The position numbers and the translations under genes were made by a program. A stretch of 64,000 bases of DNA from the NCBI RefSeq assembly GCF_013315695.1, contig NZ_CP054353.1. One strand, written 5' to 3'. The notes below the pieces were generated by a model. The model was given only the letters and a program-made list of their open reading frames with translations. It was not told where the DNA came from and ran no database searches. Positions 1,797 to 35,524 of the stretch are shown here, piece after piece. Each line of letters opens with the position of its first letter. The stretch's first letter is position 1. This stretch comes from Escherichia coli. Its GTDB lineage: Bacteria > Pseudomonadota > Gammaproteobacteria > Enterobacterales > Enterobacteriaceae.

Positions 1797-2037
1797 AGTT
1801 ACCAGTCTCATTGGATCGGACAATTTTCCGTTAGGGCGGGAAATTGTACTTGATACATGAAAATACGGGTTTTCTTGATTCAGACGCGCAGCGGTGTGCG
1901 TTTGTTTGCCGCTATAACGAAATAAATCAGAAAATCAGACGCGGTCGTTCACTTGTTCAGCAACCAGATCAAAAGCCATTGACTCAGCAAGGGTTGACCG
2001 TATAATTCACGCGATTACACCGCATTGCGGTATCAAC

Positions 2038-2114
2038 GCGCCCTTAGCTCAGTTGGATAGAGCAACGACCTTCTAAGTCGTGGGCCGCAGGTTCGAATCC
2101 TGCAGGGCGCGCCA
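2038..2114 (+). tRNA. argU: tRNA-Arg (anticodon UCU)
   Basis: 77-nt cloverleaf GCGCCCTTAGCTCAGTTGGATAGAGCAACGACCTTCTAAGTCGTGGGCCGCAGGTTCGAATCCTGCAGGGCGCGCCA; anticodon loop CT-TCT-AA. Confidence 0.9.
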
Positions 2115-2116
2115 TT
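2070..2116 (+). repeat. attL core: 47-bp direct repeat (3' half of argU), repeated at 38754-38800
   Basis: Identical 47-mer cttctaagtcgtgggccgcaggttcgaatcctgcagggcgcgccatt at both positions. Confidence 0.85.
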
Positions 2117-2129
2117 ACAATTCAATCAG

Positions 2130-3293: not shown

Positions 3294-3520
3294 TTTCTTT
3301 CCTCTGTTATGCCATCACCCGCGCTCACCTGGACAGTATGCAGCGGAGACTGAAGCGCCGCAATGCAAGCTTGCCGTGTTGTGAGGTAAGGAGATTTTGG
3401 CTTGGTTGGATCTTTACGTGTTGCCTGTAGGCGGCCTGTTCGTATCCAGTTGGTGGCGGTTGGTCTGGATATCTTAAGAAACTGACAGGCCTCATCGAGT
3501 GTGAGGCTGTATGGCTCCAT
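3149..3520 (-). CDS. Excisionase-like HTH protein (AlpA/Xis type); 3' end overlaps int
   Basis: Start at [31 protein letters not shown] (HTH); ATGA overlap with the upstream gene stop at 3520; the long C-terminal extension is uncertain. Confidence 0.5.
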
Positions 3521-3825
3521 TATTTCACCTCTTGCTGTGTCATTGTTGAAAAATGGATACCAGCTCGTTGCTGCCAGACGATCCAACCGAGAGTCATATC
3601 CCATGCCATGTATTCGTTATCGCCGTTTTTTACTCTCCGACGATCTACTAAGTCACCGAAACGCTTTTCCATGAATAATTCATAGGCTTCGCGTTCATCT
3701 GGCTCTACTTCCAGAGATACGAGTGCGATTTCATAAGCACGGCGCTCAATATCGTCTCGAACCTCTAGGCTGCTGATTCGTTCTTTGATTTCTTTAATCA
3801 GTTCTTTATTGGTAAATGTGGTCAT
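3520..3825 (-). CDS. Hypothetical phage early protein (101 aa)
   Basis: ORF translationally coupled to neighbours on both sides; no recognisable motif. Confidence 0.45.
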   Translation of the reverse strand: MTTFTNKELIKEIKERISSLEVRDDIERRAYEIALVSLEVEPDEREAYELFMEKRFGDLVDRRRVKNGDNEYMAWDMTLGWIVWQQRAGIHFSTMTQQEVK

Positions 3826-4187
3826 TATGCTCCAGCCTCCGGTGCTTTTGGCATTACTGCCCAGTGAGTGATATTGACGTTTTCAAGGTCCCCGACCTGA
3901 AATGTCCACTGCCATTCTCCGGTTTCTTTTTGTCCCCAGGTGTACCAGAGAGAACGCCAGCCAATCAGCCAGCCTTCTCCATTAGCATCAAATAACAGAA
4001 CACTTTCATTTGCTGGTGGCAGTTCAGCTGACACTGGTATTATTTTGTTTTCCAGTGCCGCACATTTAGCTTCAAGCGCGTCGAATTTACGTAACAGGTA
4101 CTCAGCATTTGTTTCATTCACTTTCAGATCTCGCGGTACACATTTCCCGCGAAGAAACCCTTCCATTTCGAAAACATTCATGCGCAT
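3825..4187 (-). CDS. DUF551-type phage protein (120 aa)
   Basis: C-terminal W-rich signature (GWLIGW...ITHWAVMPKAPE) typical of DUF551. Confidence 0.5.
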   Translation of the reverse strand: MRMNVFEMEGFLRGKCVPRDLKVNETNAEYLLRKFDALEAKCAALENKIIPVSAELPPANESVLLFDANGEGWLIGWRSLWYTWGQKETGEWQWTFQVGDLENVNITHWAVMPKAPEAGA

Positions 4188-4714
4188 TTGCGTAACTCCG
4201 ATAAATCGTTAAAACGTTCCATAAACATCCCGTAGGCATGACCCGGTGCCAGTGGAATCACGTTGAACATCTCTGTTGCCGGGATGCCTTCCAGTACAGG
4301 CCAGAAAGAGCCATCATCAAGCCCGAGATCGCGGCGTTCGGTTGCCAGCATGATGAGATCGGCATATTTCACGGGTGTACTCATAACTGGGGGTAACCCG
4401 TATTTCTCACGGATTACGGCGTCTATTTTTTCTTCCATCCGTTTATAGTCAGGAAGAAGGCGTTTCAGTGGTGCGGGAATGTCCTGGCAATACGCTTCTG
4501 TTGCATCATGCATTAACGCTTCAAAAGCAAATTCCTGCGGCACCAGCTGGCTGCAAAGAACCGCATGTTGGGCGACGCTGTAGAAGTGCGAAAGATGACC
4601 GGCAAAGCGACAGATATTTGAAAGGGAAACCGCGATATCGTTAATATCGATGTCGTCTTTATTTATCTTGTCATAATAAAAATGCTTCCCGGAAAAAGTT
4701 TTAATAAATGACAT
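4178..4714 (-). CDS. HD-domain phosphohydrolase (YfdR-like 5'-deoxynucleotidase)
   Basis: H...HD...D motif (..HAVLCSQ..ALMHDATEAY..); start at Met with a GGAG RBS inside ORF 4178-4741. Confidence 0.6.
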   Translation of the reverse strand: MSFIKTFSGKHFYYDKINKDDIDINDIAVSLSNICRFAGHLSHFYSVAQHAVLCSQLVPQEFAFEALMHDATEAYCQDIPAPLKRLLPDYKRMEEKIDAVIREKYGLPPVMSTPVKYADLIMLATERRDLGLDDGSFWPVLEGIPATEMFNVIPLAPGHAYGMFMERFNDLSELRKCA

Positions 4715-4842
4715 TTTGTTCTCCACGTATATGCACTGCACCGCGCTGAATTCTGGTAAAAGGAAGCCCTCACCATCCGGTGATTATTGAGTTAATTACG
4801 TTTCCATAAATGCCCCCGCAGGGGCATTTGCAGTAATGAAAT

Positions 4843-5041
4843 CAGGCGGTGAAAGTACCAATAAAGGTTTCTACTTTGCTGTCTTTGAATTTCTCAACAA
4901 GCAGATCACGAAATTCGTTAGCCATTTCTTCCTGCACCGCTTCCAGCTGAATAATGCGCAGAACCAGTACAGGACGATCGCCAGTGATAATGCTGAGGCG
5001 TAATTTAAACGGACGTTCTTTCAGACCTTCAAACGGAACGC
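4843..5041 (-). pseudogene. 3' fragment of a phage gene whose 5' end is removed at the IS1 junction
   Basis: Open frame (..[53 protein letters not shown]) runs into the IS1 left end with no start codon. Confidence 0.45.
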
Positions 5042-5096
5042 GGTGATGCTGCCAACTTACTGATTTAGTGTATGATGGTGTTTTTGAGGTGCTCCA

Positions 5097-5372
5097 GTGG
5101 CTTCTGTTTCTATCAGCTGTCCCTCCTGTTCAGCTACTGACGGGGTGGTGCGTAACGGCAAAAGCACCGCCGGACATCAGCGCTATCTCTGCTCTCACTG
5201 CCGTAAAACATGGCAACTGCAGTTCACTTACACCGCTTCTCAACCCGGTACGCACCAGAAAATCATTGATATGGCCATGAATGGCGTTGGATGCCGGGCA
5301 ACAGCCCGCATTATGGGCGTTGGCCTCAACACGATTTTACGTCACTTAAAAAACTCAGGCCGCAGTCGGTAA
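5097..5372 (+). CDS. insA: IS1 InsA
   Basis: 91-aa product [30 protein letters not shown]... Confidence 0.9.
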
Positions 5373-5794
5373 CCTCGCGCATACAGCCGGGCAGTGACGT
5401 CATCGTCTGCGCGGAAATGGACGAACAGTGGGGCTATGTCGGGGCTAAATCGCGCCAGCGCTGGCTGTTTTACGCGTATGACAGGCTCCGGAAGACGGTT
5501 GTTGCGCACGTATTCGGTGAACGCACTATGGCGACGCTGGGGCGTCTTATGAGCCTGCTGTCACCCTTTGACGTGGTGATATGGATGACGGATGGCTGGC
5601 CGCTGTATGAATCCCGCCTGAAGGGAAAGCTGCACGTAATCAGCAAGCGATATACGCAGCGAATTGAGCGGCATAACCTGAATCTGAGGCAGCACCTGGC
5701 ACGGCTGGGACGGAAGTCGCTGTCGTTCTCAAAATCGGTGGAGCTGCATGACAAAGTCATCGGGCATTATCTGAACATAAAACACTATCAATAA
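5291..5794 (+). CDS. insB: IS1 InsB frame (expressed as InsAB' by -1 frameshift)
   Basis: 167-aa frame overlapping insA; IS1 transposase signature. Confidence 0.85.
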
Positions 5795-5956
5795 GTTGGA
5801 GTCATTACCTTCTAATTGATATGCAATTGTTTACTAAAAGTTATTAAAAATGGGGCGTGGAAACGCCCCCAAAATAAAGGGTAATATATAACAGAAGGTT
5901 TATATAGTAAGAAGCAAGGTAGTGCTTCTAAAGGAAGTGGCTTGAGGGCTCCACTT

Positions 5957-5997
5957 ATATGTTGCGGAGGCAAAGCCTCCCGCAACATATCTTTTTC
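5957..5997. terminator. Hairpin with T-run between IS1 and the nmpC stop
   Basis: atatgttgcggagg-caaa-gcctcccgcaacatat followed by ctttttc. Confidence 0.35.
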
Positions 5998-6007
5998 GTA
6001 AGTCAGA

Positions 6008-7090
6008 TTAGAACTGATAAACCAGACCTACAGCGACGATGTCGTCGGTATCAATACCAGCTGTTTTGGTAAACTTACTATCGTCAATTAAGTTGATTTT
6101 GTAATCAACAAAAGTGGACATGTTTTTATTAAAGTAGTAAGTAGCACCGACATCGACATACTTGACTAAGTCTCGGTCACCATGAACACCAAGGTCTTTA
6201 CCTTTTGACTGAAGGTAAGCAACAGATGGACGCAGACCGAAGTCAAACTGATATTGTGCTACTGCTTCAAAGTTTTGTGCTTTGTTTGCAATATGGTTAT
6301 TACCAAAAACGGTCATATTCTGAGTTTCAGAATATGTGGTAGCCAGATAGATATTGTTCGCATCATATTTCAGGCCTGCAGCCCATACTTCCGCATTTTT
6401 GCCGGAGGCATTGAATTTGCTCTTACCATAGGCGACCTGACCGTCAGTGCGATCTGATTTAGCATAGGTTGCACCCACGCCGAATCCTTCATACTCATAA
6501 GTAGTGGAGAAACCGAAACCATCACCATTGGCTTCAGTTACGTCAGTGCGGTCATTTTTACCCTGATACTGAGCAGCAAAGTTCAGGCCATCGACCAGAC
6601 CAAAGAAGTCGTTGTTACGATAAGTTGCAACACCAGTAGTGCGACCAGTCATGAACACATCTGTTTGGGTCCAGGTATCACCACCGAATTCTGGCAGGAC
6701 GTCAGTCCACGCACCGATGTCGTATGCTACACCGTAGTTACGGCCGTAATCGATTGAGCCGTAATCACCAAATTTCAGGCCTGCAAATGCAAGACGGGTT
6801 TTGTCTTTGGAAGAACCTTGAGATTCAGCACGGTTGCCTTTGAATTCATATTCCCACTGACCGAAACCAGTCAGTTGATCGTTGATTTGGGTTTCACCTT
6901 TGAAGCCAAGACGGGCATAAGTAGTATCACCATCATCTGCATCATTAGAGGAGAAGTAGTGCTTGGCATTAACTTTCCCGTATAGATCCAGCTTGTTACT
7001 GTCTTTATTATAAATTTCAGCTGCCTGAGCAGACATCGCCATCAGTACTGATGCAGCTACAGCAGAAATTGCCACTGTTAATTTTTTCAT
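6008..7090 (-). CDS. nmpC: Prophage-encoded general porin (NmpC/OmpD family)
   Basis: Signal peptide [23 protein letters not shown], porin beta-barrel, C-terminal ..VAVGLVYQF; uninterrupted. Confidence 0.8.
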
Positions 7091-7516
7091 TGTACGCCCT
7101 TTTTTTGAACTATTATTAAAAAATGATGTCACTGCGCGATAAATATTCATCTAATCAATGCGATTATTTCAAGATGTAAGTTTTAGTTTCTCATTTAATT
7201 TGTGAAGTAGATCTCTATTTTTATCTAAACCTTTTCTATCTAATCCTATTCATGGCTCTTGTTTGAACGAAAATAAATCTATTAGCTAATTTATATTAAT
7301 GGCACTTATTTATAAGCGATCTATAATTCTTTAGCTTAATTTAAACAAGCTAAAAATAACATCGGAAATTATTCATTGGTTATTTGTTGAAGTTTTCTTA
7401 TGTATTTGTGGTGGTGTTTTGAACACTCGGTGGCATTCTCACAAATATCATTTAGTAGTTTACGTACGTAAAAAATTGGTTATGCTGTTAAGAGTGGTTA
7501 CTTCGTCACACAGCTT

Positions 7517-7550
7517 AAACCCGCCGTCGAGCGGGTTTTTCCATTTTTTG
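7517..7550 (+). terminator. Rho-independent terminator upstream of the lysis genes (candidate tR-prime of the late operon)
   Basis: aaacccgc-cgtcga-gcgggttt then ttccatttttt; position matches lambdoid pR-prime/tR-prime architecture. Confidence 0.45.
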
Positions 7551-7678
7551 AGTCTCGATATTAGCTGATAACCCAATACCTGAGTTATTCACTGACTCCG
7601 AATCTGTTACGTTTCTGCCTTTATTGCGATACGTAGTATCCCCTTAATTTACACCCGCTTTGTCTGCGAGGTGGGGTT

Positions 7679-7894
7679 ATGAAATCCATGGATAAGTTAA
7701 CAACGGGTGTCGCCTATGGCACCTCAGCAGGTAGTGCCGGATACTGGTTTTTACAGCTGCTAGATAAAGTCACGCCCTCACAGTGGGCGGCAATTGGAGT
7801 GCTGGGTAGCCTGGTATTTGGCCTGCTGACGTACCTGACAAACCTTTATTTCAAGATTAAAGAAGATAAGCGCAAGGCTGCGAGAGGTGGATAA
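7679..7894 (+). CDS. Holin (phage-21 S-type pinholin)
   Basis: 71-aa two-TM protein ..[44 protein letters not shown].. Confidence 0.8.
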
Positions 7895-8391
7895 TGCCTC
7901 CATCATTACGAAAAGCTGTTGCTGCTGCTATTGGTGGCGGGGCTATTGCTATAGCATCTGTGTTAATCACTGGCCCAAGTGGTAACGATGGTCTGGAAGG
8001 TGTGAGACATAATCCTTACAAAGACATAGTTGGTGTATGGACTGTATGTTACGGGCATACAGGAAAAGACATCATTCCCGGTAAAACGTATACCGAAGCA
8101 GAGTGCAAAGCCCTCCTGAATAAAGACCTTGCCACTGTCGCCAGACAAATTAACCCGTACATCAAAGTCGATATACCGGAAACAACGCGCGGCGCTCTTT
8201 ACTCGTTCGTCTACAACGTGGGTGCTGGCAATTTCAGAACATCGACGCTTCTTCGCAAAATCAACCAGGGCGATATCAAAGGCGCATGTGACCAGCTACG
8301 TCGCTGGACATACGCTGGCGGTAAGCAATGGAAAGGGCTGATGACTCGCCGTGAGATTGAGCGTGAAGTCTGTTTGTGGGGGCAGCAATGA
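7894..8391 (+). CDS. SAR endolysin (lysozyme)
   Basis: N-terminal signal-anchor-release segment ([20 protein letters not shown]) followed by a lysozyme domain; ATGA coupling to the holin. Confidence 0.8.
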
Positions 8392-8825
8392 GCAGGTTAA
8401 CCGCGATTATCTCCGCTCTGGTTATCTGCATCATCGTCTGTCTGTCATGGGCTGTTAATCATTACCGTGATAACGCCATTACCTATAAAGAACAGCGCGA
8501 TAAAGCCACGTACATCATCGCTGACATGCAGAAGCGTCAACGTGACGTAGCAGAACTCGATGCCAGATATACAAAGGAGCTTGCTGATGCTAACGCGACT
8601 ATCGAAAGTCTCCGTGCTGATGTTTCTGCTGGGCGTAAGCGCCTGCAAGTCGCCGCCACCTGTGCAAAGTCAACGACCGGAGCCAGCGGCATGGGCGATG
8701 GAGAAAGCCCAGGACTTACAGCAGATGCTGAACTCAATTATTACCGTCTCCGAAGTGGAATCGACAAGATAACCGCGCAGGTTAACTACCTGCAGGAATA
8801 CATCAGGACGCAATGCCTGAAATAA
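8376..8825 (+). CDS. Rz inner-membrane spanin
   Basis: 149-aa product with N-terminal TM then coiled coil, overlapping the endolysin end. Confidence 0.75.
8587..8772 (+). CDS. Rz1 outer-membrane lipoprotein spanin (embedded in Rz, +1 frame)
   Basis: Lipobox ..LLGVSAC then proline-rich [11 protein letters not shown]; AAGGAG RBS upstream. Confidence 0.7.
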
Positions 8826-8885
8826 TTTTTTTGCAAATCACAAAGTCAATTTAATGAGCCTCGCGATGCGGGGCTTTTTGCAATA

Positions 8886-8912
8886 AATGCGTACCGCAAC
8901 GCATGTTTTTTA
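8886..8912 (+). terminator. Rho-independent terminator after the lysis cassette
   Basis: atgcgt-accgca-acgcat followed by gttttttta. Confidence 0.45.
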
Positions 8913-9026
8913 CACCGAACCTGCCCCTTTGGAATGGGCCTTTGAGGATACCAGTTAGTGCTGGCGAGCCTCGGTGGGCTGGTTTCCTGTGCGGCAAAGG
9001 TTCATTTCAAAGAGTAGGTACACGCT

Positions 9027-9524
9027 ATGAAATCATTAACCCTCTTCAATCAACCAATTCGTATCGGTGAAGATGGCATGATCTGCCTCACTGATATGTG
9101 GAAAGCCAGTGGTAAAAGTGAATCTGAATCGCCTTACCACTACCTGCGAAACAAGCAGACCAAAGAGTTCTTAGCCGAGCTGGAGAAAAACCACGAATCT
9201 GTGGTTTTTACTGAGCGCGGTGTACACGGTGGAACATATGGCGGGAAGTTTGTTGCTTACGATTATGCGGCTTGGTTAAACCCCGGGTTCAAGTACGCGG
9301 CCTATAAAGTCCTCGATGACTACTTCACCGGAGAACTTCAGCATCGCAACAGCTTAAGTGCGCAGCTCAACATGAAATGTCATGAGTTTGACCAGAAGAA
9401 AGACATGGCGAGCTTCTGCGGACAAGGGCTGGCAGCATGGCGCTATACGAAGCCAGTGTTGGTCGCTGAGATTAACTCCCTGGCTAACCAGCTGCAGATT
9501 ACGATCCCCGGGCTTCCGGGATGA
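9027..9524 (+). CDS. KilA-N domain protein (165 aa)
   Basis: KilA-N signature (GMICLTDMWKASGK..YHYLRNKQTKEFLAEL..GTYGGKFVAYDYAAWLNPGF). Confidence 0.6.
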   Translation: MKSLTLFNQPIRIGEDGMICLTDMWKASGKSESESPYHYLRNKQTKEFLAELEKNHESVVFTERGVHGGTYGGKFVAYDYAAWLNPGFKYAAYKVLDDYFTGELQHRNSLSAQLNMKCHEFDQKKDMASFCGQGLAAWRYTKPVLVAEINSLANQLQITIPGLPG

Positions 9525-26467: not shown

Positions 26468-29400
26468 ATGGGTAAAGGAAGCAGTAAGGGGCATACCCCG
26501 CGCGAAGCGAAGGACAACCTGAAGTCCACGCAGTTGCTGAGTGTGATCGATGCCATCAGCGAAGGGCCGGTTGAAGGTCCGGTGGATGGATTAAAAAGCG
26601 TGCTGCTGAACAGTACGCCGGTGCTGGACACTGAGGGGAATACCAACATCTCCGGTGTCACGGTGGTGTTCCGTGCCGGTGAGCAGGAGCAGACACCGCC
26701 GGAGGGGTTTGAATCCTCCGGCTCCGAGACGGTGCTGGGTACGGAAGTGAAATATGACACGCCGATCACCCGCACCATTACGTCTGCAAACATCGACCGT
26801 CTGCGCTTTACCTTCGGTGTACAGGCACTGGTGGAAACCACCTCAAAGGGTGACAGGAATCCGTCGGAAGTCCGTCTGCTGGTTCAGATACAACGTAACG
26901 GTGGCTGGGTGACGGAAAAAGACATCACCATTAAGGGCAAAACCACCTCGCAGTATCTGGCCTCGGTGGTGGTGGGTAACCTGCCGCCGCGCCCGTTTAA
27001 TATCCGGATGCGCAGGATGACGCCGGACAGCACCACAGACCAGCTGCAGAACAAAACGCTCTGGTCGTCATACACCGAAATCATCGATGTGAAACAGTGC
27101 TACCCGAACACGGCACTGGTCGGCGTGCAGGTGGACTCGGAGCAGTTCGGCAGCCAGCAGGTGAGCCGTAATTATCATCTTCGCGGGCGCATTCTGCAGG
27201 TGCCGTCGAACTATAACCCGCAGACGCGGCAATACAGCGGTATCTGGGACGGAACGTTTAAGCCGGCATACAGCAACAACCCGGCCTGGTGTCTGTGGGA
27301 TATGCTGACCCACCCGCGCTACGGCATGGGGAAACGTCTTGGTGCGGCGGATGTGGATAAATGGGCGCTGTATGTCATCGGCCAGTACTGCGACCAGTCA
27401 GTGCCGGACGGTTTTGGCGGCACGGAGCCGCGCATCACCTGTAATGCCTGGCTGACCACGCAGCGTAAGGCGTGGGATGTGCTCAGTGATTTCTGCTCGG
27501 CGATGCGCTGTATGCCGGTATGGAACGGGCAGACGCTGACGTTCGTGCAGGACCGACCATCAGATAAGGTGTGGACCTATAACCGCAGTAATGTGGTGAT
27601 GCCGGATGATGGCGCGCCGTTCCGCTACAGCTTCAGCGCCCTGAAGGACCGCCATAATGCCGTTGAGGTGAACTGGATTGACCCGAACAACGGCTGGGAG
27701 ACGGCGACAGAGCTTGTTGAAGATACGCAGGCCATTGTCCGTTACGGTCGTAATGTCACGAAGATGGATGCCTTTGGCTGTACCAGCCGGGGGCAGGCAC
27801 ACCGCGCCGGGCTGTGGCTGATTAAAACTGAACTGCTGGAGACGCAGACCGTGGATTTCAGCGTGGGTGCTGAAGGGCTTCGCCATGTACCGGGCGATGT
27901 CATTGAAATCTGCGATGATGACTATGCCGGTATCAGCACCGGTGGTCGCGTGCTGGCGGTGAACAGCCAGACCCGGACGCTGACGCTCGACCGTGAAATC
28001 ACGCTGCCATCCTCCGGTACCACGCTGATAAGCCTGGTTGACGGAAGTGGTAATCCGGTCAGCGTGGAGGTTCAGTCCGTCACCGACGGACTTAAGGTGA
28101 AAGTGAACCGGGTTCCTGACGGCGTTGCAGAATACAGTGTGTGGGGGCTGAAGTTGCCGACGTTGCGTCAGCGCCTGTTCCGCTGTGTGAGTATCCGTGA
28201 GAACGATGACGGCACGTATGCCATCACTGCCGTGCAGCATGTACCGGAAAAAGAAGCCATCGTGGATAACGGGGCGCACTTTGACGGCGACCAGAGCGGC
28301 ACGGTGAATGGTGTCACGCCGCCAGCGGTGCAGCACCTGACCGCCGAAGTCACCGCAGACAGCGGGGAATATCAGGTGCTGGCGCGCTGGGACACGCCGA
28401 AGGTGGTGAAGGGCGTGAGCTTCCTGCTCCGTCTGACCGTAACAGCGGATGACGGCAGTGAGCGGCTGGTCAGCACGGCCCGGACGACGGAAACCACATA
28501 CCGCTTCACGCAACTGGCGCTGGGGAACTACAGACTGACAGTCCGGGCGGTAAATGCGTGGGGGCAGCAGGGCGATCCGGCGTCGGTATCGTTCCGGATT
28601 GCCGCACCGGCAGCACCGTCGAGGATTGAGCTGACGCCGGGCTATTTTCAGATAACCGCCACGCCGCATCTTGCCGTTTATGACCCGACGGTACAGTTTG
28701 AGTTCTGGTTCTCGGAAAAGCGGATTACCGATATCAGGCAGGTTGAAACCACAGCCCGCTATCTTGGTACGGCGCTGTACTGGATAGCCGCCAGTATCAA
28801 TATCAAACCGGGCCATGATTATTACTTTTATATCCGCAGTGTGAACACCGTTGGCAAATCGGCATTCGTGGAGGCTGTCGGTCAGGCGAGCGATGATGCG
28901 GAAGGTTACCTGGATTTTTTCAAAGGCCAGATAACCGAATCCCATCTCGGCAAGGAGCTGCTGGAAAAAGTCGAGCTGACGGAGGATAACGCCAGCAGAC
29001 TGGAGGAGTTTTCGAAAGAGTGGCAGGACGCTAACGATAAGTGGAATGCCATGTGGGGCGTCAAAATTGAGCAGACCAAAGACGGCAAACATTATGTCGC
29101 GGGTATTGGCCTCAGCATGGAGGACACGGAAGAAGGCAAGCTGAGCCAGTTTCTGGTTGCCGCTAACCGTATCGCGTTTATTGACCCGGCAAACGGGAAT
29201 GAAACGCCGATGTTTGTGGCGCAGGGCAATCAGATATTTATGAACGACGTGTTCCTGAAGCGCCTGACGGCCCCGACCATTACCAGTGGTGGAAATCCAC
29301 CGGCATTTTCCCTGACATCAGACGGAAAGCTGACCGCTAAAAATGCGGATATCAGTGGCAGAGTGAATGCGAACGCCGGGACGCTCAACAATGTCACGGT

Positions 29401-29881
29401 AAATGAAAACTGTACGATTAAGGGCATGCTGGAGGCGACTCAGGTCAGAGGTGACTTCGTTAAAGCTGTATCCAAATCATTCCCGAAACAGGCTGGTACG
29501 TGGGGTAACACGGAAACACCAAACGGGACGGTTACAGTCACCATCAGCGATGATCATAACTTTGACCGTCAAATCATTATTCCGCCCATTATCTTTAACG
29601 GAATAGCGTATAGCGATCCGGGAAGTGGTAATAACCCGGGAGGTACAAGATACACGGGTTATGGTTTTGAAGTTCGCAAAAACGGTGTATTAATCGCATC
29701 CAGAGAAACTAAAGGGGCCATTCCCGGTAGCTACAGTGCGGTTATTGATATGCCGAGTGGCAGGGGAAGCGTCACTCTGGAGTTTAAGGTTTTCCATAAA
29801 GGCAATCAGTGGGCAGGTAATATCACCGACTGTACGGTGATTGTGACCAAAAAAGCCGCTTCCGGCATCAGTATTCGTTGA
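26468..29881 (+). CDS. J: Central tail fibre / host-specificity protein J
   Basis: 1137 aa, lambda gpJ; the C-terminal ~150 codons are visibly lower in GC. Confidence 0.9.
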
Positions 29882-29901
29882 AATTGTTATAACCCATATA
29901 A

Positions 29902-29927
29902 GGGCACCAGAAATGGTGCCTTTTTTA
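29902..29927 (+). terminator. Rho-independent terminator after J
   Basis: gggcacc-agaaat-ggtgcc followed by ttttttatt. Confidence 0.5.
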
Positions 29928-29950
29928 TTGCAGAAAAGCGAGAGGTAATT

Positions 29951-30550
29951 ATGCGTAAACTTTATGCCGCCATTTTGTCCGCAGCCATTTGTCTGGCCGT
30001 ATCCGGTGCGCCTGCATGGGCATCTGAACATCAGTCCACGCTGAGCGCGGGGTATCTTCATGCCCGGACCAACGTTCCCGGCAGTGATGATCTGAACGGG
30101 ATTAACGTGAAATACCGTTATGAGTTTACGGATACGCTGGGGCTGGTGACGTCATTCAGCTATGCAGGAGACAAGAATCGCCAGCTGACCCGTTACAGCG
30201 ATACCAGCTGGCATGAAGATTCCGTGCGTAACCGCTGGTTCAGCGTGATGGCGGGGCCGTCTGTGCGCGTGAATGAATGGTTCAGCGCGTATGCGATGGC
30301 GGGTATGGCTTACAGCCGTGTTTCGACTTTTTCCGGGGATTACCTTCGCGTAACTGACAACAAGGGGAAAACGCACGATGTGCTGACCGGAAGTGATGAC
30401 GGTCGCCACAGCAACACGTCTCTGGCGTGGGGGGCTGGCGTGCAGTTTAACCCGACCGAATCCGTGGCCATTGATATTGCTTATGAAGGTTCTGGCAGTG
30501 GTGACTGGCGCACTGACGGTTTCATCGTGGGTGTCGGTTATAAATTCTGA
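29951..30550 (+). CDS. lom: Lom outer-membrane protein (Ail/Lom family)
   Basis: Signal peptide MRKLYAAILSAAICLAVSGAPAWA, 8-strand barrel, C-terminal ..GFIVGVGYKF. Confidence 0.85.
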   Translation: MRKLYAAILSAAICLAVSGAPAWASEHQSTLSAGYLHARTNVPGSDDLNGINVKYRYEFTDTLGLVTSFSYAGDKNRQLTRYSDTSWHEDSVRNRWFSVMAGPSVRVNEWFSAYAMAGMAYSRVSTFSGDYLRVTDNKGKTHDVLTGSDDGRHSNTSLAWGAGVQFNPTESVAIDIAYEGSGSGDWRTDGFIVGVGYKF

Positions 30551-30614: not shown

Positions 30615-33011
30615 ATGGCAGTAAAGATTTCAGGTGTACTGAAAGACGGCACAGGAAAACCGGTACAGAACTGCTCAATCCAGCTGAAAGCAAAACGTAA
30701 CAGCACCACGGTGGTAGTGAACACGCTGGCCTCAGAAAATCCGGATGAAGCCGGGCGTTACAGTATGGATGTTGAGTATGGCCAGTACAGCGTTATCCTG
30801 CTGGTTGAAGGTTTTTCGCCTTCACATGCCGGGACCATCACCGTGTATGAAGATTCTAAGCCGGGGACGCTGAATGATTTTCTCGGTGCCATGACGGAAG
30901 ATGATGTCATGCCGGAGGCATTGCGTCGTTTTGAGGAAATGGTGGAAGAAGCGGCACGCAACGCTGAAGCCGCCTCTCAGAGCGCAGCGGCGGCAAAGAA
31001 ATCCGAAACTGCAGCGGCATCATCGAAGAACGCGGCGAAAACCTCAGAAACGAATGCAGCTAATAGTGCACAGGCGGCAGCGACCTCAAAGACTGCATCG
31101 GCAAACTCCGCGACAGCAGCCAAAAAATCAGAAACCAACGCGAAAAATAGCGAGACAGCCGCAAAGACGAGCGAAACCAACGCAAAGTCCAGCCAGACGG
31201 CAGCGAAAACCAGCGAAACGAATGCCAAAGCCAGTGAAACTGCGGCAAAAAACAGCCAGGTTGCAGCAGCCCAAAGCGAGAGCGCGGCAGCCGGTTCTGC
31301 GACTTCAGCAGCTGGATCAGCAACTGCTGCGGCTAACAGCCAGAAAGCTGCGAAGACGAGTGAAACTAACGCAAAGTCCAGCCAGACGGCAGCGAAGACC
31401 AGCGAAACGAATGCCAAAGCCAGCGAAACTGCGGCGAAAAACAGTCAGGATGCAGCAGCCCAAAGCGAGAGTGCTGCAGCTGGTTCTGCAAGCGCGGCGG
31501 CTGCTTCTGCCACTGCATCAGCCAACAGTCAAAAAGCAGCAAAAACCAGTGAAACCAATGCAAAGACAAGCGAGACTGCAGCGGCGAACTCGGCGAAAGC
31601 ATCGGCAGCAAGCCAGACAGCAGCTAAAGCAAGTGAAGACGCAGCCAGAGAGTATGCAAGTCAGGCAGCAGAGCCGTATAAATATGTCTTACAGCCACTG
31701 CCTGATGTGTGGATACCGTTTAACGATTCACTGGATATGATTACGGGCTTTTCGCCGTCATATAAAAAAATTGTTATTGGTGATGATGAAATAACGATGC
31801 CTGGCGACAAGGTTGTTAAGTTTAAACGCGCATCAACTGCCACATATATCAATAAATCAGGCGTATTTAGTGTTGCTAAAATTGATGAGCCACGATTTGA
31901 AAAAGAAGGTTTATTGATTGAAGGACAGCGCACTAACTATTTTGTTAAATCCAATACTCCCGCTGAATGGACGAGTACCAGCAATATCGATAAAACTAAT
32001 AATGGTGTTGATGAATTTGGTTTTTCATATGCCAAAATGCGAACAAAAGATAATATGACAGGACAATCATCTGCACTTAGTCTGCATACATGCAGTGCAT
32101 CCCGGGGGATTGATGTTAGTGGCGATAATAAGTATTGCACTGTTTCATGCAGGGTTAAAGCTCCTGATGGTCTTCGTTGTCGTTTGCGTTTTGAAAAATA
32201 CGATGGGTCGGTTTATACATTTTTAGGAGATGCTTATTTAACTTTCGGAACTCTGATAATAGAAAAAACTGGCGGAGCAGCCAATAGAATAGCAGCTACT
32301 GCAACTAAAGATCCGGTTACAGGGTGGATTTTCTATGAGGCAACTATAGAAGCTGTTGAAGGTGAAACCTTAATTGGCGCAATGATTCAGTATGCGCCGA
32401 AAAAAGGTGGTATAACTGAAGCGGGAGATTATATTTACCTTGCAACACCACAATTTGAAAACGGCGGATGTGCTTCATCTTTTGTTATTACGACAACTGC
32501 ACCCGCAACCCGCTCCAGTGATATGGTGACGATCCCAACTGAAAATAATATCTATAATAGACCGCTTACGTGTCTTGTCGAGGTTAATAGAAATTGGGGC
32601 GATATTCCTCCTAATGTAGCACCGCGTATTTTTGATTTTTCTGGTGTGCCACCTATTGAGTCAATTACATACGCTTTTAACACAACTGAGAAATATTACG
32701 GTCAGCTTTATATGCAAACTTATAAAGCGTCGACAAGTACTTACGTTTCTAGTGTGTTTGCTGGTCGAGCTGATGTTCGAAAATTCATTGGTGGTTTTAA
32801 TATTTATTCTGATGGTACTAAACGAGTAGTTTCTAACGGTGAGGCTACTAAAACTATGAAAACGGAGTGGACGGGCGTAAAAACACGGACCTTTATTCGA
32901 ATTGGAGGTCAAGCCACATCGGGAACTCGTCATCTATTCGGCCATTTGAGAAATCTTCGTCTCTGGCATAAAGAATTAACTGATGCGCAAATGGGGGAGA
33001 GTATTAAATGA
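30615..33011 (+). CDS. stf: Side tail fibre Stf, intact single ORF; lambda-type N-terminus and repeats, divergent low-GC C-terminal domain
   Basis: 798 aa; N-terminus MAVKISGVLKDGTGKPVQNCSIQLKA..; Ser/Ala/Thr/Lys repeats; C-terminus ends ..GHLRNLRLWHKELTDAQMGESIK, resembling LamG/ConA-like lectin domain ends. Confidence 0.8.
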   Translation: MAVKISGVLKDGTGKPVQNCSIQLKAKRNSTTVVVNTLASENPDEAGRYSMDVEYGQYSVILLVEGFSPSHAGTITVYEDSKPGTLNDFLGAMTEDDVMPEALRRFEEMVEEAARNAEAASQSAAAAKKSETAAASSKNAAKTSETNAANSAQAAATSKTASANSATAAKKSETNAKNSETAAKTSETNAKSSQTAAKTSETNAKASETAAKNSQVAAAQSESAAAGSATSAAGSATAAANSQKAAKTSETNAKSSQTAAKTSETNAKASETAAKNSQDAAAQSESAAAGSASAAAASATASANSQKAAKTSETNAKTSETAAANSAKASAASQTAAKASEDAAREYASQAAEPYKYVLQPLPDVWIPFNDSLDMITGFSPSYKKIVIGDDEITMPGDKVVKFKRASTATYINKSGVFSVAKIDEPRFEKEGLLIEGQRTNYFVKSNTPAEWTSTSNIDKTNNGVDEFGFSYAKMRTKDNMTGQSSALSLHTCSASRGIDVSGDNKYCTVSCRVKAPDGLRCRLRFEKYDGSVYTFLGDAYLTFGTLIIEKTGGAANRIAATATKDPVTGWIFYEATIEAVEGETLIGAMIQYAPKKGGITEAGDYIYLATPQFENGGCASSFVITTTAPATRSSDMVTIPTENNIYNRPLTCLVEVNRNWGDIPPNVAPRIFDFSGVPPIESITYAFNTTEKYYGQLYMQTYKASTSTYVSSVFAGRADVRKFIGGFNIYSDGTKRVVSNGEATKTMKTEWTGVKTRTFIRIGGQATSGTRHLFGHLRNLRLWHKELTDAQMGESIK
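31179..31556 (+). repeat. Two tandem ~189-bp copies (63 codons each) inside stf
   Basis: aacgcaaagtccagccagacggcagcgaa... recurs at 31179 and 31368 at ~90% identity. Confidence 0.7.
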
Positions 33012-33289
33012 AAGATTTAACACTCAAATTTGCAGACAGGGCCGACTTTTCGGCCTTTATGGAGAGCATTGGCTATTATGATGACGAGTCGATGCAGGAT
33101 GATATTCTTATTGACGTGATAGGTAATGTGTACAAAGAAACCGGAGAACTTACTGAAGATGGCGAGCCGGTATGTGTTAAGGAGGACGGATATTTTGTAA
33201 ATGTGCGCATCATTAATGATTCGCAAATATCGTCATTATTCGATGAATACGTGGTTGCTGTTGAGCATCAACTCCGTAGCTGGATGTGA
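33008..33289 (+). CDS. Hypothetical highly acidic 93-aa protein, translationally coupled to stf
   Basis: ATGA overlap with the stf stop; D/E-rich; no recognisable family. Confidence 0.45.
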   Translation: MKDLTLKFADRADFSAFMESIGYYDDESMQDDILIDVIGNVYKETGELTEDGEPVCVKEDGYFVNVRIINDSQISSLFDEYVVAVEHQLRSWM

Positions 33290-33298
33290 GGAAGAAAA

Positions 33299-34003
33299 AT
33301 GGCTACATCGACAGTAATTCCTGATGACATCAAAACGCTAAAGGGAGATGTCAGTAAGGCAAAGGAAGATATTTCCTCAATTAACGTAAAAGTATCAACG
33401 CTTCAGACTGATATGGACAGTGCAAAGCAGGATATCAGTACCAGATACACAAAAACAGAAGTGGATAATAAGCTGAAAAACAAAGTGGAAGTGAACGATC
33501 TGGAAAGTGGTCGTTATGGCGGAGATTTTTACCCGCTGACTGGCCGTGAAGCGTTTTATTTATGGGGATTGGGCACAACTACAGCGGCGGCAAATCTTTA
33601 TCTTAATCCTGACCCTGCAATTTCGTCTGTGCTGCGGTCAACATCGTCTATCCGCTATAAACATTCAGTAGAGACGATAGATTCAGAGCACGCCGATCTC
33701 ATTTTCAGGATGCGCCCTGTGTGGTACAGGTCGCAATGCGAAAATGACAGGCGTGACTGGGGATTCTATGGATTGATTGCCGAGGAAGTAGGAGAAATTG
33801 CCCCTCAGTTTGTTCACTGGCGACCAGCCAACGAAGATGATGCACCGGAAACCATTTCCAGCAATGGCCTTGTTGCCGAAGGTGTAATGTACGAACGTCT
33901 GGTTGTTCCACTGATTCACCATATCCAGAAACTGACTGAAAGAGTTGATGAACTTGAGTCAGAATTGAAGTTGTTATCAACTTCCCAAAGCGATATCGGA
34001 TAA
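33299..34003 (+). CDS. Short fibre-like protein: coiled-coil N-terminus plus C-terminal intramolecular-chaperone (peptidase S74-like) domain
   Basis: ..STSSIRYKHSVETID..LIFRMRPVWYR..GFYGLIAEEVGEIAPQFV..LVAEGVMYERLVVPLIHHIQKLTERVDELESEL.. Confidence 0.55.
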   Translation: MATSTVIPDDIKTLKGDVSKAKEDISSINVKVSTLQTDMDSAKQDISTRYTKTEVDNKLKNKVEVNDLESGRYGGDFYPLTGREAFYLWGLGTTTAAANLYLNPDPAISSVLRSTSSIRYKHSVETIDSEHADLIFRMRPVWYRSQCENDRRDWGFYGLIAEEVGEIAPQFVHWRPANEDDAPETISSNGLVAEGVMYERLVVPLIHHIQKLTERVDELESELKLLSTSQSDIG

Positions 34004-34013
34004 AGGAGGAGTA

Positions 34014-34307
34014 ATGGATATAACACCTTTTCTTCATGCGCTTTGTGCTGTGGCTGCGCAGGTAATGATTGGTCTTTTTGCCGGAAACTGGGTTTACGGG
34101 GCGATAGCCGGTTGTACGTTCTTCATTGCGCGTGAACACACCCAGGCAGAATATCGCTGGATTGAAATGTTCGGGCATGGCAAGTGGATTAACATGCCGT
34201 GGTGGGGCGGTTTTGATCCGCGTGTTTGGGATGTGGCAAGCCTGATAGATTTTGCTGTGCCGGTGGTGGCGTGTCTGCTGGTCTGGCTGTTGGTTAATCG
34301 TGGGTGA
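34014..34307 (+). CDS. Small predicted membrane protein (97 aa)
   Basis: Strong RBS aggagg; hydrophobic segments LHALCAVAAQVMIGLFAGNWVYGAIAGCTFFIA and LIDFAVPVVACLLVWLLV. Confidence 0.5.
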   Translation: MDITPFLHALCAVAAQVMIGLFAGNWVYGAIAGCTFFIAREHTQAEYRWIEMFGHGKWINMPWWGGFDPRVWDVASLIDFAVPVVACLLVWLLVNRG

Positions 34308-34317
34308 AAAAAGGTGA

Positions 34318-34446
34318 GCTGTATATGCAACGGAGGAAGAAACCCCGTTGCTGGAAGCCTGGAAAAAGTATCGGGTGTTGCTGAACCGTGTTGATACATC
34401 AACTGCACCTGATATTGAGTGGCCTACGAACCCTGTCAGGGAGTAA
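34318..34446 (+). pseudogene. 3' remnant of a tail fibre assembly gene (tfa)
   Basis: 42 codons ..[39 protein letters not shown] with an in-frame stop immediately upstream. Confidence 0.65.
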
Positions 34447-34500: not shown

Positions 34501-35169
34501 CTATTTTTTCCCTGAAGCGGAAAACATTACTACAGTACCTTGAACCTTGGTTTTAACATTCTCGAAATGCTCTGAGAGTATATGTGTTAAGCCTTCTTCG
34601 GAATCTTTTGTGTTTGAAAAGATGCCTTTCTGATTGTAAATGCGCATCAGTTTTTGACCGAAGCTATTGTGCACAACTCCATCGCCAAGAATTGTGGCTC
34701 CGTATAGAGTTCCATCGTCAGTTAAGGCCTGCGCCGCATTGCGTATTACACAGCTTTTTGTAGATATATTTCCAGGCAGGCAGTGAAGAAGGTAAAACAT
34801 GGAAATGGAATCAAATTGACCATGTAACGCCGCGGGATAAGGTTCAAAAACATCATGGCTAATTTTATGTTTAATTTTTGATTCCCCAGCCCTTGTAGAT
34901 GCCGCGTTCAGGCTAGCTTCGTTCAAATCCATTAAAGATATCAGACTACTCTCAGGTACGTGAGTAAGGTAAAACCCAGTTCCAACACCAATATCCAGAT
35001 GGTTGTTACCTAAATGTTCCAGAAAGTGTGGAAGAAGGTGTTCCTTTGTAGGACATCCCCATGCAAGCCGATTTGATACTCCCAAAACCCACCAGTCATA
35101 AAGCTTTAGGGTAAGTGGTGTGTAAATTTTAGCCCCATCATCTGTGTTTTTTTTCATTAATTTCACCAT
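34501..35169 (-). CDS. ybcY: Class I SAM-dependent methyltransferase (YbcY-like)
   Basis: Motif I ..HLDIGVGTGFY..; low GC; same position between tfa fragments as ybcY in DLP12. Confidence 0.7.
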   Translation of the reverse strand: MVKLMKKNTDDGAKIYTPLTLKLYDWWVLGVSNRLAWGCPTKEHLLPHFLEHLGNNHLDIGVGTGFYLTHVPESSLISLMDLNEASLNAASTRAGESKIKHKISHDVFEPYPAALHGQFDSISMFYLLHCLPGNISTKSCVIRNAAQALTDDGTLYGATILGDGVVHNSFGQKLMRIYNQKGIFSNTKDSEEGLTHILSEHFENVKTKVQGTVVMFSASGKK

Positions 35170-35225: not shown

Positions 35226-35524
35226 ATGCTGCCGCAGCATAGCGATATTGAAATAGCCTGGTATGCTTCGATACAGCAGGAGCCGAATGGCTGGAAGACC
35301 GTCACCACACAGTTCTACATCCAGGAATTCAGTGAGTATATTGCGCCACTGCAGGATGCTGGGAAATCGCAACGGAGGAAGAAAGATCGTTGCTGGAGGC
35401 ATGGAATAAATATCGGGTATTGTTGAATCATGTTGATACATCAGTAGCTCTGGGTATGAAGCTGTTTGTAACTCATGTTACAGTAACAGCCATTACTATC
35501 TCGAAGGTGCAAAATGTATATTGA
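35226..35524 (+). pseudogene. Frameshifted tfa fragment (tfaX-like)
   Basis: ..[10 protein letters not shown].. in one frame, then ..[27 protein letters not shown].. in another. Confidence 0.6.

What the first reader, a model, noticed from the sequence alone, without database searches (positions are those of the whole stretch)
31179..31556. Near-perfect 189-bp tandem duplication inside stf
Two adjacent ~189-bp units at ~90% identity encode a repeated 63-residue Ser/Ala/Thr/Lys-rich segment in the fibre shaft. Such repeats are prone to expansion and contraction by recombination and could vary fibre length between isolates.
Basis: seen in the sequence. Interest (0 to 1): 0.3.

Follow-up and report, generated by a model that had tools for sequence, protein, structure and literature searches.

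The report
Duplicated coiled-coil module in phage fibre
A prophage side-tail-fibre gene carries an old, in-frame tandem duplication of a 63-residue stretch of its coiled-coil shaft. Rare one-copy and three-copy versions in other E. coli show that it occasionally contracts and expands by unequal recombination, which is real but ordinary.

Summary
The repeat is real: period 189 bp, 2.3 copies, window 31149-31583. Unit 1 is 31149-31337 and unit 2 is 31338-31526.

It is not near-perfect. The units are 85% identical in DNA (161/189) and share 56/63 residues. dS is 0.72 and dN 0.05, so the duplication is old and both copies are under purifying selection.

It lies in stf (30615-33011, 798 aa), after J and lom, in a lambdoid prophage at the tRNA-Arg/DLP12 site of E. 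coli. The unit is exactly nine heptads of a 35-heptad run with no register break (Ser at position 3, Ala at position 7). This run corresponds to the proximal trimeric coiled coil of Ur-lambda Stf. One unit should add about 9 nm without changing the heptad phase.

It is not an assembly artefact. The same gene length appears in all 40 best complete-genome hits and in phage PhiR49_1.

Copy number does vary:
- One-copy alleles made up 20 of 121 close protein clusters. Phage IdasGreatGrand and IMG/VR locus L133 are one-copy.
- One three-copy allele was found (L013).
- One complete genome carries a 42-bp sub-repeat deletion.

The junctions are the reciprocal chimeras expected from unequal crossing-over, and conversion tracts are common in the unit bodies. 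The variants are nevertheless rare (about 1-2%), and two copies is the stable state.

Interest is low.

The parts
30615..33011 (+). stf-like side tail fibre gene (798 aa), intact ORF that contains the repeat
   Evidence: ORF listed and translated. Pfam phage_tail_N at 1-131, E = 1.2e-68. PHROG 1419 'tail protein' matched full length. 100% identical in E. coli MSB1_4I and 99.2% in phage PhiR49_1, where it is annotated as side tail fiber protein.
30615..30896 (+). N-terminal collar domain (aa 1-94) that anchors the fibre on the tail
   Evidence: phmmer hit to PDB 9e7m chain Ta (Ur-lambda tail tip, Stf residues 1-94), E = 4.9e-50. Foldseek TM 0.84, 90% identity.
30933..31667 (+). Unbroken run of 35 heptads (aa 107-351): the predicted alpha-helical coiled-coil shaft
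   Evidence: Heptad layout. Position 3 is Ser in 32/35 heptads and position 7 is Ala in 32/35. AF2 models helices 102-288 and 300-351. Corresponds to the Ur-lambda proximal coiled coil 102-393 (PMC12617516).
31149..31337 (+). Repeat unit 1 (189 bp, 63 aa, nine heptads; aa 179-241)
   Evidence: TRF; register and identity.
31338..31526 (+). Repeat unit 2 (189 bp, 63 aa; aa 242-304). 161/189 nt and 56/63 aa identical to unit 1.
   Evidence: dS 0.72, dN 0.05.
31527..31583 (+). Partial third copy ('post' head, SQKAAKTSETNAK...). This is the downstream homology that, together with the unit head, flanks a 189-bp interval and can seed unequal crossing-over.
   Evidence: TRF array end is 31583. Protein alignment of units. 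The crossover in L007 maps here.
31112..31438 (+). Lower-order 21-bp and 42-bp (7-aa and 14-aa) sub-repeats within and upstream of the units
   Evidence: TRF rows with period 21 and 42. A 42-bp deletion inside unit 2 occurs in complete genome AF58 (L010).
31812..33008 (+). Distal half of the fibre (aa ~400-798): two concanavalin-A/LamG-like beta-sandwich domains, the presumed receptor-binding part
   Evidence: AF2 pLDDT mostly above 90. Foldseek hits to laminin LG4-5, Pseudomonas phage Pa193/E217 fibre and CBM40. NCBIfam GTA_spike_fiber at 434-634.
26468..30550 (+). Upstream context: tip attachment protein J (26468-29881) and Lom (29951-30550)
   Evidence: Pfam hits; RefSeq annotation of the identical locus.
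33008..34307 (+). Downstream co-oriented small genes: 93 aa; 234 aa with a Peptidase_S74 chaperone domain; 97 aa. They travel with this stf type.
   Evidence: The same gene order is seen in L001, L002, L004 and L008.

Best explanation
The feature is an old, in-frame tandem duplication of a nine-heptad (63-residue, 189-bp) module in the proximal alpha-helical coiled-coil shaft of a lambda-type side tail fibre (Stf).

Origin (inferred). A one-copy ancestor already had two copies of the motif AAKTSETNAK 189 bp apart, as part of the 14-residue sub-periodicity. Unequal crossing-over between them produced head-unit-unit-post.

Structural effect (inferred). The unit is a whole number of heptads, so the duplication lengthens each trimeric fibre by about 9.3 nm (63 x 0.148 nm). 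It does not disturb the Ser/Ala core register or the relative phase of the collar and the distal lectin-like domains.

Maintenance (shown). Both copies are kept under purifying selection.

Ongoing recombination (shown from sequences). Gene-conversion tracts occur in the conserved unit bodies. Rare unequal crossovers give the reciprocal products: a one-copy [unit-1 head + unit-2 tail] allele and a three-copy allele whose middle unit is [unit-2 head + unit-1 tail]. At least one allele (L008) has two unit-2-like copies, from re-duplication or long-tract conversion.

Stability (part shown, part inferred). Divergence, with a longest exact run of 29 nt in this window, keeps the rate low, so two copies is the stable common state. 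The dominance of two copies is shown; the link between divergence and low rate is inferred.

The functional effect of fibre length on adsorption is inferred, not shown.
For: Repeat and register.

Coding signature: 21 synonymous against 7 non-synonymous differences (Nei-Gojobori path counts, from 28 nt differences in 24 codons); dS 0.72, dN 0.05 in the stf frame. The other frames give dN above dS, except the antisense frame whose third positions coincide with those of stf.

Heptad structure: 35 uninterrupted heptads, Ser at position 3 and Ala at position 7 in 32/35 each. AF2 helices 102-288 and 300-351. The Ur-lambda Stf architecture of collar, linker and proximal trimeric coiled coil comes from PMC12617516.

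Not an artefact: the same 2397/2394-bp length in all top-40 complete genomes and in phage PhiR49_1.

Copy-number series: the segment between the two shaft anchors (SETNAKN and EPYK) is 174 aa in 98 of 121 sequences (the query plus 120 protein-cluster representatives) and 111 aa in 20. Phage IdasGreatGrand and IMG/VR locus L133 are one-copy. L013 is three-copy.

Heptad phase is kept: collar-to-distal anchor distances of 156, 198, 247, 261 and 324 aa are all congruent to 2 mod 7.

Crossover signatures at the 28 sites that distinguish the units:
- L006 reads 13 unit-1 states followed by 15 unit-2 states.
- L007 is all unit-1, with the switch in the unit-2 head/post region.
- The L013 middle unit is unit-2-like at the head and unit-1-like afterwards.
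- Both L008 units resemble the one-copy allele, and its junction is post-like on the 5' side and head-like on the 3' side.

Conversion: 118 two-copy alleles from IMG/VR have paralogue-specific tails but mosaic bodies. The same variants (V/D, Q/E, N/S) occur in either unit.
Against: Most one-copy alleles, and the single three-copy allele, come from draft or short-read assemblies. None of the top-40 complete-genome hits was one-copy or three-copy, so their true frequency is poorly known and some could be assembly errors. Against that, the switch points in L006 and L007 lie in exact runs of only 5-8 nt, too short for a de Bruijn-graph collapse.

The unit tails are much more diverged than the bodies (pS 0.71 against 0.35). 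This could mean the unit-1 tail was imported from another allele rather than diverging in place.

The trimeric coiled-coil state is taken from Ur-lambda by homology of architecture, not tested here. The AF2 monomer has only moderate confidence in the shaft (pLDDT 60-75) and breaks the helix at 289-299.

No experiment links shaft length to function. The prophage in this window appears to lack its early region, so this copy may never build virions.
Confidence: 0.85

Rival explanations
1. The duplication is an assembly artefact in this window.
For: Tandem repeats in tail-fibre genes are a classic source of mis-assembly. Several lambdoid prophages per genome carry related stf sequences (median 2, up to 14 places per genome).
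Against: The two units differ at 28 of 189 positions, mostly synonymous, so they are not a doubled read pile-up. The identical 2397-bp gene is present in MSB1_4I and in many other complete genomes of unrelated strains (possum, koala, bovine, human), and in the isolated phage PhiR49_1. At least 120 two-copy loci were found in IMG/VR.
Confidence: 0.01
2. The locus is a fast, contingency-type hypervariable repeat. Its copy number flips at high frequency, giving each lysogen population a mix of fibre lengths.
For: Alleles with 1, 2 and 3 copies, a 42-bp sub-repeat deletion, and 3-aa and 4-aa indels all exist. Conversion tracts are frequent.
Against: The units are only 85% identical and the longest exact run is 29 nt. 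By my recollection of Shen and Huang 1986 this is near the minimal efficient processing segment for RecA-dependent recombination in E. coli; I did not check that here. dS of 0.72 shows the two copies have coexisted for a long time. Two copies dominates everywhere sampled. The unit is 189 bp, not a short simple-sequence tract, and changes are in frame, so there is no on/off switching.
Confidence: 0.05
3. There was no single old duplication. The similarity reflects repeated independent duplications, or convergence of a low-complexity heptad sequence.
For: The whole shaft is built of similar heptads. L008 shows that a second, more recent duplication or a long conversion has happened (173/189 identical units).
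Against: Identity at offset 189 (0.85) stands far above every other heptad-compatible offset (0.60 or less). In 118 alleles the unit-1 and unit-2 tails are consistently of their own paralogue type. That pattern argues for one ancestral duplication followed by divergence, with later exchange limited mostly to the bodies.
Confidence: 0.07
4. The repeated DNA encodes something on the other strand or an RNA element. Minus-strand ORFs at 30977-31417, 31060-31323 and 31366-31611 overlap it.
For: ORFs of 81-146 aa exist on the minus strand, and some are annotated 'hypothetical protein' in CFT073, where stf is broken. The antisense frame that shares third positions also shows dN below dS (0.074 against 0.48).
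Against: The strongest constraint is in the stf frame (dN/dS 0.07). The antisense signal is the expected mirror effect of shared third-codon positions. The minus-strand ORFs start at TTG and lie wholly inside an intact, conserved 798-aa gene with a strict heptad pattern. RefSeq annotates no minus-strand gene under the intact stf allele. I did not scan the minus-strand ORFs against protein-family libraries.
Confidence: 0.02

Closest known systems
Ur-lambda side tail fibre gpStf (PDB 9e7m/9mgh; Wang et al. 2025, PMC12617516)
   Same: The N-terminal collar domain is about 90% identical. The gene sits after J and lom. A long Ala/Ser/Thr/Lys/Glu-rich heptad region follows the collar, described for Ur-lambda as a proximal trimeric coiled coil (residues 102-393).
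   Different: The distal half here is two ConA/LamG-like domains rather than the gp37-like tip that binds OmpC. No intact tfa chaperone gene follows; only pseudogene remnants are annotated. The 63-residue tandem duplication was not searched for in lambda's own stf. The only wastewater phage labelled 'Lambda' whose protein was read (Lambda_2E9; it and nine similar rows match over about 315 bp less) has a shaft 105 residues (315 bp) shorter than this one and lacks the duplicated unit.
Recombination between repeated motifs in phage fibre genes. Examples recalled from my own knowledge, not checked here: T-even gp37 His-box swapping (Tetart 1998), repeated motifs in fibres (Sandmeier 1994), collagen-like repeat number in Streptococcus thermophilus phage host-specificity proteins (Duplessis and Moineau 2001).
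   Same: Internal repeats in a fibre gene serve as substrates for homologous recombination that changes the fibre.
   Different: Here the exchange changes the length of a coiled-coil spacer in whole heptad multiples. It does not swap the receptor-binding tip.
Engineered lambda Stf chimeras (Brodel et al. 2024, PMC11338833)
   Same: These show that the Stf shaft tolerates truncation or fusion at different positions (residues 393 or 528) and still gives functional fibres. This is consistent with natural length variants being viable.
   Different: The chimeras are artificial fusions that replace the distal part, not natural module copy-number changes.
Klebsiella phage depolymerase tailspikes 7lzj, 7vyv and 7vz3
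   Same: They share a short stretch of the same heptad sequence (e.g. AKTSEDNAKSSENAAKNSE) near the N-terminal anchor.
   Different: The match is weak (E about 1e-3) and covers about 44 residues only. The rest of the protein is unrelated.

Membership tests
Lambda-type side tail fibre (Stf; Pfam PF08400 phage_tail_N) | N-terminal collar domain that attaches the fibre to the tail | tested here: met
   PF08400 at 1-131, E = 1.2e-68, 229.8 bits against a cut-off of 26.6. PDB 9e7m Stf 1-94, E = 4.9e-50. Foldseek TM 0.84.
Lambda-type side tail fibre (Stf; Pfam PF08400 phage_tail_N) | Gene located in the late operon directly after J and lom | tested here: met
   J at 26468-29881, Lom at 29951-30550, stf at 30615-33011.
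Lambda-type side tail fibre (Stf; Pfam PF08400 phage_tail_N) | Long proximal coiled-coil shaft after a short linker | tested here: met
   35 uninterrupted heptads at residues 107-351. AF2 helices 102-288 and 300-351, with a low-confidence linker at 92-109. The trimeric state itself was not tested.
Lambda-type side tail fibre (Stf; Pfam PF08400 phage_tail_N) | gp37-like distal tip with a downstream Tfa assembly chaperone (as in Ur-lambda) | tested here: not met
   The C-terminal half consists of ConA/LamG-like domains. tfa is present only as annotated pseudogene fragments. This protein is therefore a member through its N-terminal and shaft modules but carries a different distal module.
Tandem-repeat copy-number polymorphism by unequal crossing-over | Head-to-tail copies with alleles differing by whole units | tested here: met
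   Alleles with 1, 2 and 3 units.
Tandem-repeat copy-number polymorphism by unequal crossing-over | Reciprocal chimeric units at the junctions of contracted and expanded alleles | tested here: met
   The L006 single unit reads 13 unit-1 states then 15 unit-2 states. The L013 middle unit has a unit-2 head and then unit-1 states.
Tandem-repeat copy-number polymorphism by unequal crossing-over | Variants confirmed independently of short-read assembly | tested here: inconclusive
   No one-copy or three-copy allele appeared among the top-40 complete-genome hits. Only the 42-bp variant is in a complete genome (L010). The switch points lie in exact runs of 5-8 nt, which argues against graph collapse.
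Contingency locus / phase-variable simple-sequence repeat | Short, near-identical units with high-frequency, often frame-shifting, length change | tested here: not met
   The unit is 189 bp at 85% identity with dS 0.72. The 189-bp and 42-bp copy-number changes are in frame and keep the heptad phase. Two copies dominates.
Alpha-helical coiled coil | Heptad periodicity with conserved core positions spaced 3 and 4 residues apart | tested here: met
   Ser at position 3 in 32/35 heptads and Ala at position 7 in 32/35. The core is made of small residues, which is unusual but regular.
Alpha-helical coiled coil | Parallel trimer in the assembled fibre | not testable with these tools
   Only monomer prediction is available. 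The trimer is inferred from the Ur-lambda cryo-EM/ET work (PMC12617516).

The most novel reading that the evidence does not exclude
The number of nine-heptad modules may act as a quantised 'ruler' for side-fibre reach, in steps of about 9 nm. Selection would hold most phages at two modules. Rare unequal crossovers would supply one- and three-module variants that could be favoured on hosts with thinner or thicker O-antigen or capsule layers, or when paired with central fibres (J) of different length. In that reading, shaft length is an adaptive host-range and adsorption-rate parameter alongside tip specificity.
Probability: 0.12. Interest if true: 0.45.

Novelty: new member of a known kind. Interest (0 to 1): 0.22.

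Why it matters
This is mostly a tidy, ordinary example of how modular repeats evolve in phage fibres.

Its modest value is practical. It marks a natural site in the Stf shaft where a whole 63-residue module can be removed or added while the heptad register is kept. That could guide the engineering of lambda-type delivery particles with fibres of different reach.

It also warns that stf length calls from short-read assemblies need long-read confirmation.

It gives a clean natural data set for studying recombination between diverged repeats: reciprocal one-copy and three-copy products, conversion tracts confined to the unit bodies, and paralogue-specific tails.

Tried and rejected
- Synthetic one-copy and three-copy queries against the 5,426 complete E. 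coli genomes and a real one-copy allele as query. The tool joins overlapping BLAST pieces, so two-copy alleles score as 100% covered and rank by identity. The searches could only show that no one- or three-copy allele lies among the top 25-40 hits. They could not give a frequency.
- Using only protein-cluster counts (20 of 121 one-copy) as a frequency. I rejected this because clusters are not genomes: one two-copy cluster alone has 2,393 members.
- De Bruijn-graph collapse as the source of the one-copy alleles. I considered this and judged it unlikely for L006 and L007, whose switch points lie in exact runs of 5-8 nt. It remains possible for alleles whose parents have long identical runs (68-82 nt in CFT073 and L008).
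- An antisense gene. Rejected on codon-level evidence.
- Literature searches for a prior description of this duplication or of heptad-quantised fibre length variation found nothing specific.
- The full-length AF2 monomer folds the shaft back on itself at residues 289-299. I treat this as a monomer artefact, as reported for AlphaFold3 on Ur-lambda Stf in PMC12617516, and did not use it to infer a hinge.
- The second structure job, the metagenome and genome-collection scans, and Rfam were not used, because nothing pointed to them.
Full report
**Observation.** Tandem Repeats Finder reports a 189-bp period with 2.3 copies, 83% matches and no indels at window 31149-31583. Nested arrays of period 21 and 42 bp lie inside and just upstream. 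The best register is unit 1 at 31149-31337, unit 2 at 31338-31526, and a partial third head from 31527. At that register the units are 161/189 = 85.2% identical. Only the first 152 nt reach 90.8%. An offset scan shows identity of 0.85 at offset 189 and at most 0.60 at every other offset between -400 and +500, including all other multiples of 21. The signal is therefore a true duplication and not the general heptad-like low complexity of the region. 'Near-perfect' is an overstatement: there are 28 nucleotide differences and the longest shared exact run is 29 nt.

**Where it sits.** The repeat is in frame inside an intact 798-codon ORF at 30615-33011 on the + strand.
- The product has the Pfam 'prophage tail fibre N-terminal' domain at residues 1-131 (E = 1.2e-68).
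- The gene follows the tip attachment protein J (26468-29881) and Lom (29951-30550).
- Residues 1-94 match the Stf collar domain of the Ur-lambda tail-tip structure 9e7m (E = 4.9e-50; Foldseek TM 0.84, 90% identity).
- The stf gene is 100% identical to E. coli MSB1_4I, whose annotated prophage was used to read the context. The prophage lies next to tRNA-Arg(tct) and an integrase on one side and ompT-envY-nfrA-cus on the other, which is the DLP12 site.
- The isolated phage PhiR49_1 carries the same gene at 99.2% identity, annotated as side tail fibre Stf.

**Anatomy of the repeat.**
- Each unit is 63 residues. Unit 1 has A 22, S 12, T 9, E 5, K 5, and 56/63 residues are identical between units.
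- The unit is exactly nine heptads of a run of 35 heptads (residues 107-351) with no register break. Position 3 is Ser in 32/35 heptads and position 7 is Ala in 32/35, giving two conserved small-residue positions spaced 4 and 3 apart, as expected for coiled-coil core positions.
- AlphaFold2 (monomer, 76-sequence alignment) models helices at 102-288 and 300-351 with pLDDT of about 60-75, a disordered linker at 92-109, and a confident beta-rich C-terminal half.
- The cryo-EM/ET study of Ur-lambda describes gpStf as collar (1-91), flexible linker (92-101), proximal trimeric coiled coil (102-393), hinge and distal domain (PMC12617516). By position and sequence type the duplicated module lies in the equivalent of the proximal coiled coil.
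- At 0.148 nm per residue, one unit should add about 9.3 nm to a shaft of about 36 nm. This is inference.

**Age and selection.** Of the 24 codons that differ between the units, 17 are synonymous and 7 change the residue. Nei-Gojobori estimates are dS = 0.72 and dN = 0.05. The unit body (nt 1-144) has pS 0.35 and the tail (nt 145-189) has pS 0.71. The duplication is therefore old, and both copies are held under purifying selection in the stf frame. The minus-strand ORFs that overlap the repeat are explained by codon composition. The other frames show dN above dS, except the antisense frame whose third positions coincide with those of stf.

**Not an artefact.** All 40 best complete-genome hits have the same 2397- or 2394-bp gene in a single aligned piece, as does PhiR49_1. 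At least 120 loci in IMG/VR contain two unit bodies exactly 189 bp apart.

**Copy-number variation.** I measured the shaft segment between two conserved anchors (SETNAKN and EPYK) in 121 sequences: the query plus the representatives of its 120 closest protein clusters.

| Segment length | Meaning | Count or example |
|---|---|---|
| 174 aa | two units | 98 |
| 111 aa | one unit | 20 |
| 130, 170, 177 aa | odd lengths | 1 each |

Further cases:
- Phage IdasGreatGrand carries a one-unit allele.
- An anchor-to-anchor DNA scan of IMG/VR found one more one-unit allele, L133.
- A scan for three unit bodies spaced 189 bp apart found one three-unit allele, L013, whose shaft is 63 residues longer.
- A complete genome (isolate AF58, L010) has a 42-bp, 14-residue deletion inside unit 2.

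The distances between a collar-end anchor (PEALRRFE) and a distal-domain anchor (PLPDVW) are 156, 198, 247, 261 and 324 residues in the main forms. All are congruent to 2 mod 7, so the heptad phase is kept. The forms that break phase (217, 245, 257, 264, 484) are each represented once. At least one of them (484, P0122) is a one-unit shaft with an extra domain inserted before the distal anchor, not a repeat variant, and 245 (P0121) is itself the representative of a 50%-identity cluster, with two units and a 16-residue deletion at the end of the shaft.

**Mechanism, read from the junctions.** I used the 28 sites that distinguish unit 1 from unit 2 in the window.
- The single unit of L006 reads 13 unit-1 states followed by 15 unit-2 states, and its flanks are almost identical to the window allele.
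- L007 keeps all of unit 1 and switches in the unit-2 head/post homology.
- L004, L002 and L133 are unit-1-like at the head and unit-2-like afterwards.
- The middle unit of the three-copy allele L013 is the mirror image: a unit-2 head, then unit-1 body and tail.

These are the reciprocal products expected from unequal crossing-over between misaligned units. L008 is a two-copy allele whose units are 173/189 identical. Both resemble the one-copy unit, and its junction is post-like on the 5' side and head-like on the 3' side. That fits a second, more recent duplication or a long conversion. In 118 two-copy alleles from IMG/VR the tails are almost always of their own paralogue type, whereas the bodies carry tracts of the other unit's states. 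At the protein level the same variants (V/D, Q/E, N/S) occur in either unit. I read this as one ancestral duplication followed by recurrent gene conversion in the bodies. The head motif AAKTSETNAK recurs exactly 189 bp downstream in the one-copy form, which offers a plausible substrate for the original event (inferred).

**How common are the variants?** They are rare. All top-40 complete-genome hits in each carry both 189-bp units, including when a one-copy allele was the query. One genome, AF58 (H110, H165), has a 42-bp deletion inside unit 2. The synthetic three-copy query returned only two-copy subjects in its top 25. In IMG/VR one one-copy and one three-copy locus were found, against at least 120 two-copy loci. 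Of all loci held at that point (IMG/VR plus those fetched earlier), 62 had the same two anchors at the two-copy spacing. The one-copy protein clusters have one member each, while one two-copy cluster has 2,393 members. Most variants come from draft assemblies, so some caution is needed. However, the switch points in L006 and L007 lie in exact runs of only 5-8 nt, which a k-mer graph collapse would not produce.

**Comparison with what is known.** The protein is a lambda-type Stf by its collar, its gene position and its coiled-coil shaft. Its distal half is different. It consists of two concanavalin-A/LamG-like domains: Foldseek hits include laminin LG4-5, Pseudomonas phage Pa193/E217 fibre and CBM40, and NCBIfam gives GTA_spike_fiber at 434-634. 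Ur-lambda has a gp37-like OmpC-binding tip instead, and here only tfa pseudogene remnants follow. Engineered lambda Stf chimeras fused at residues 393 or 528 are functional (PMC11338833), which shows that the shaft tolerates changes in length and composition. Recombination between internal repeats of fibre genes is a well-known theme; the examples I recall are from memory and were not checked here. I found no paper describing this particular duplication.

**Verdict.** The locus is not hypervariable, however. It is an old duplication, stably held at two copies. This is a new example of a known kind of feature and is of low general interest. The only more ambitious reading, that shaft length is a selected, heptad-quantised ruler for fibre reach, is untested.

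Noticed in passing
window 2038-9524: The prophage lies next to tRNA-Arg(tct) (2038-2114) and an integrase ORF (2130-3293, minus strand). Between the integrase and the lysis genes (7894-8825) there is an IS1 (about 5291-5794) and a prophage-borne porin gene (6008-7150, minus strand; annotated ompC in the matching RefSeq record). No repressor, replication or Q genes are present. The early region looks degraded while the whole late operon is intact. The window coordinates are about 44 bp offset from those predicted from MSB1_4I, so the window is not identical to that record throughout.
   Followed up: partly
window 31812-33008 (stf aa ~400-798): The distal half of this Stf is a confident pair of ConA/LamG-like jelly-roll domains. 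Foldseek hits include laminin LG4-5, Pseudomonas phage Pa193/E217 fibre and sialic-acid-binding CBM40, and NCBIfam reports a 'GTA head spike fiber' domain. This is unlike the gp37-like tip of Ur-lambda Stf and suggests a glycan receptor.
   Followed up: partly
window 33299-34003: The downstream 234-aa protein, which has a Peptidase_S74 intramolecular-chaperone domain, is 346 aa in other alleles of the same locus (L004, L008, CFT073). This is a second length polymorphism in a fibre-like gene next to stf.
   Followed up: no
window ~34327-34446 and ~35319-35524: The matching RefSeq record annotates tail-fibre-assembly (tfa) pseudogene remnants and a DinI fragment here, on either side of an intact class I SAM methyltransferase gene (34501-35169, minus strand). 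These appear to be relics of an earlier fibre module.
   Followed up: no
L010 (NZ_OZ547038.1, isolate AF58) 1366-3720: This complete genome carries the two-unit allele with a clean 42-bp (14-residue, two-heptad) deletion inside unit 2. The lower-order 42-bp sub-repeats therefore also recombine.
   Followed up: partly
L009 (CFT073, NZ_CP058222.1) 1622-4600: In CFT073 the homologous two-unit stf is annotated as broken fragments, with an IS200 upstream of it. Spurious minus-strand 'hypothetical proteins' are annotated across the repeat region.
   Followed up: no
P0122 (1014 aa representative): This relative has a one-unit shaft, followed by an extra globular region of about 290 residues inserted between the coiled coil and the PLPDVW distal anchor. 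It is a different way of lengthening the fibre.
   Followed up: no
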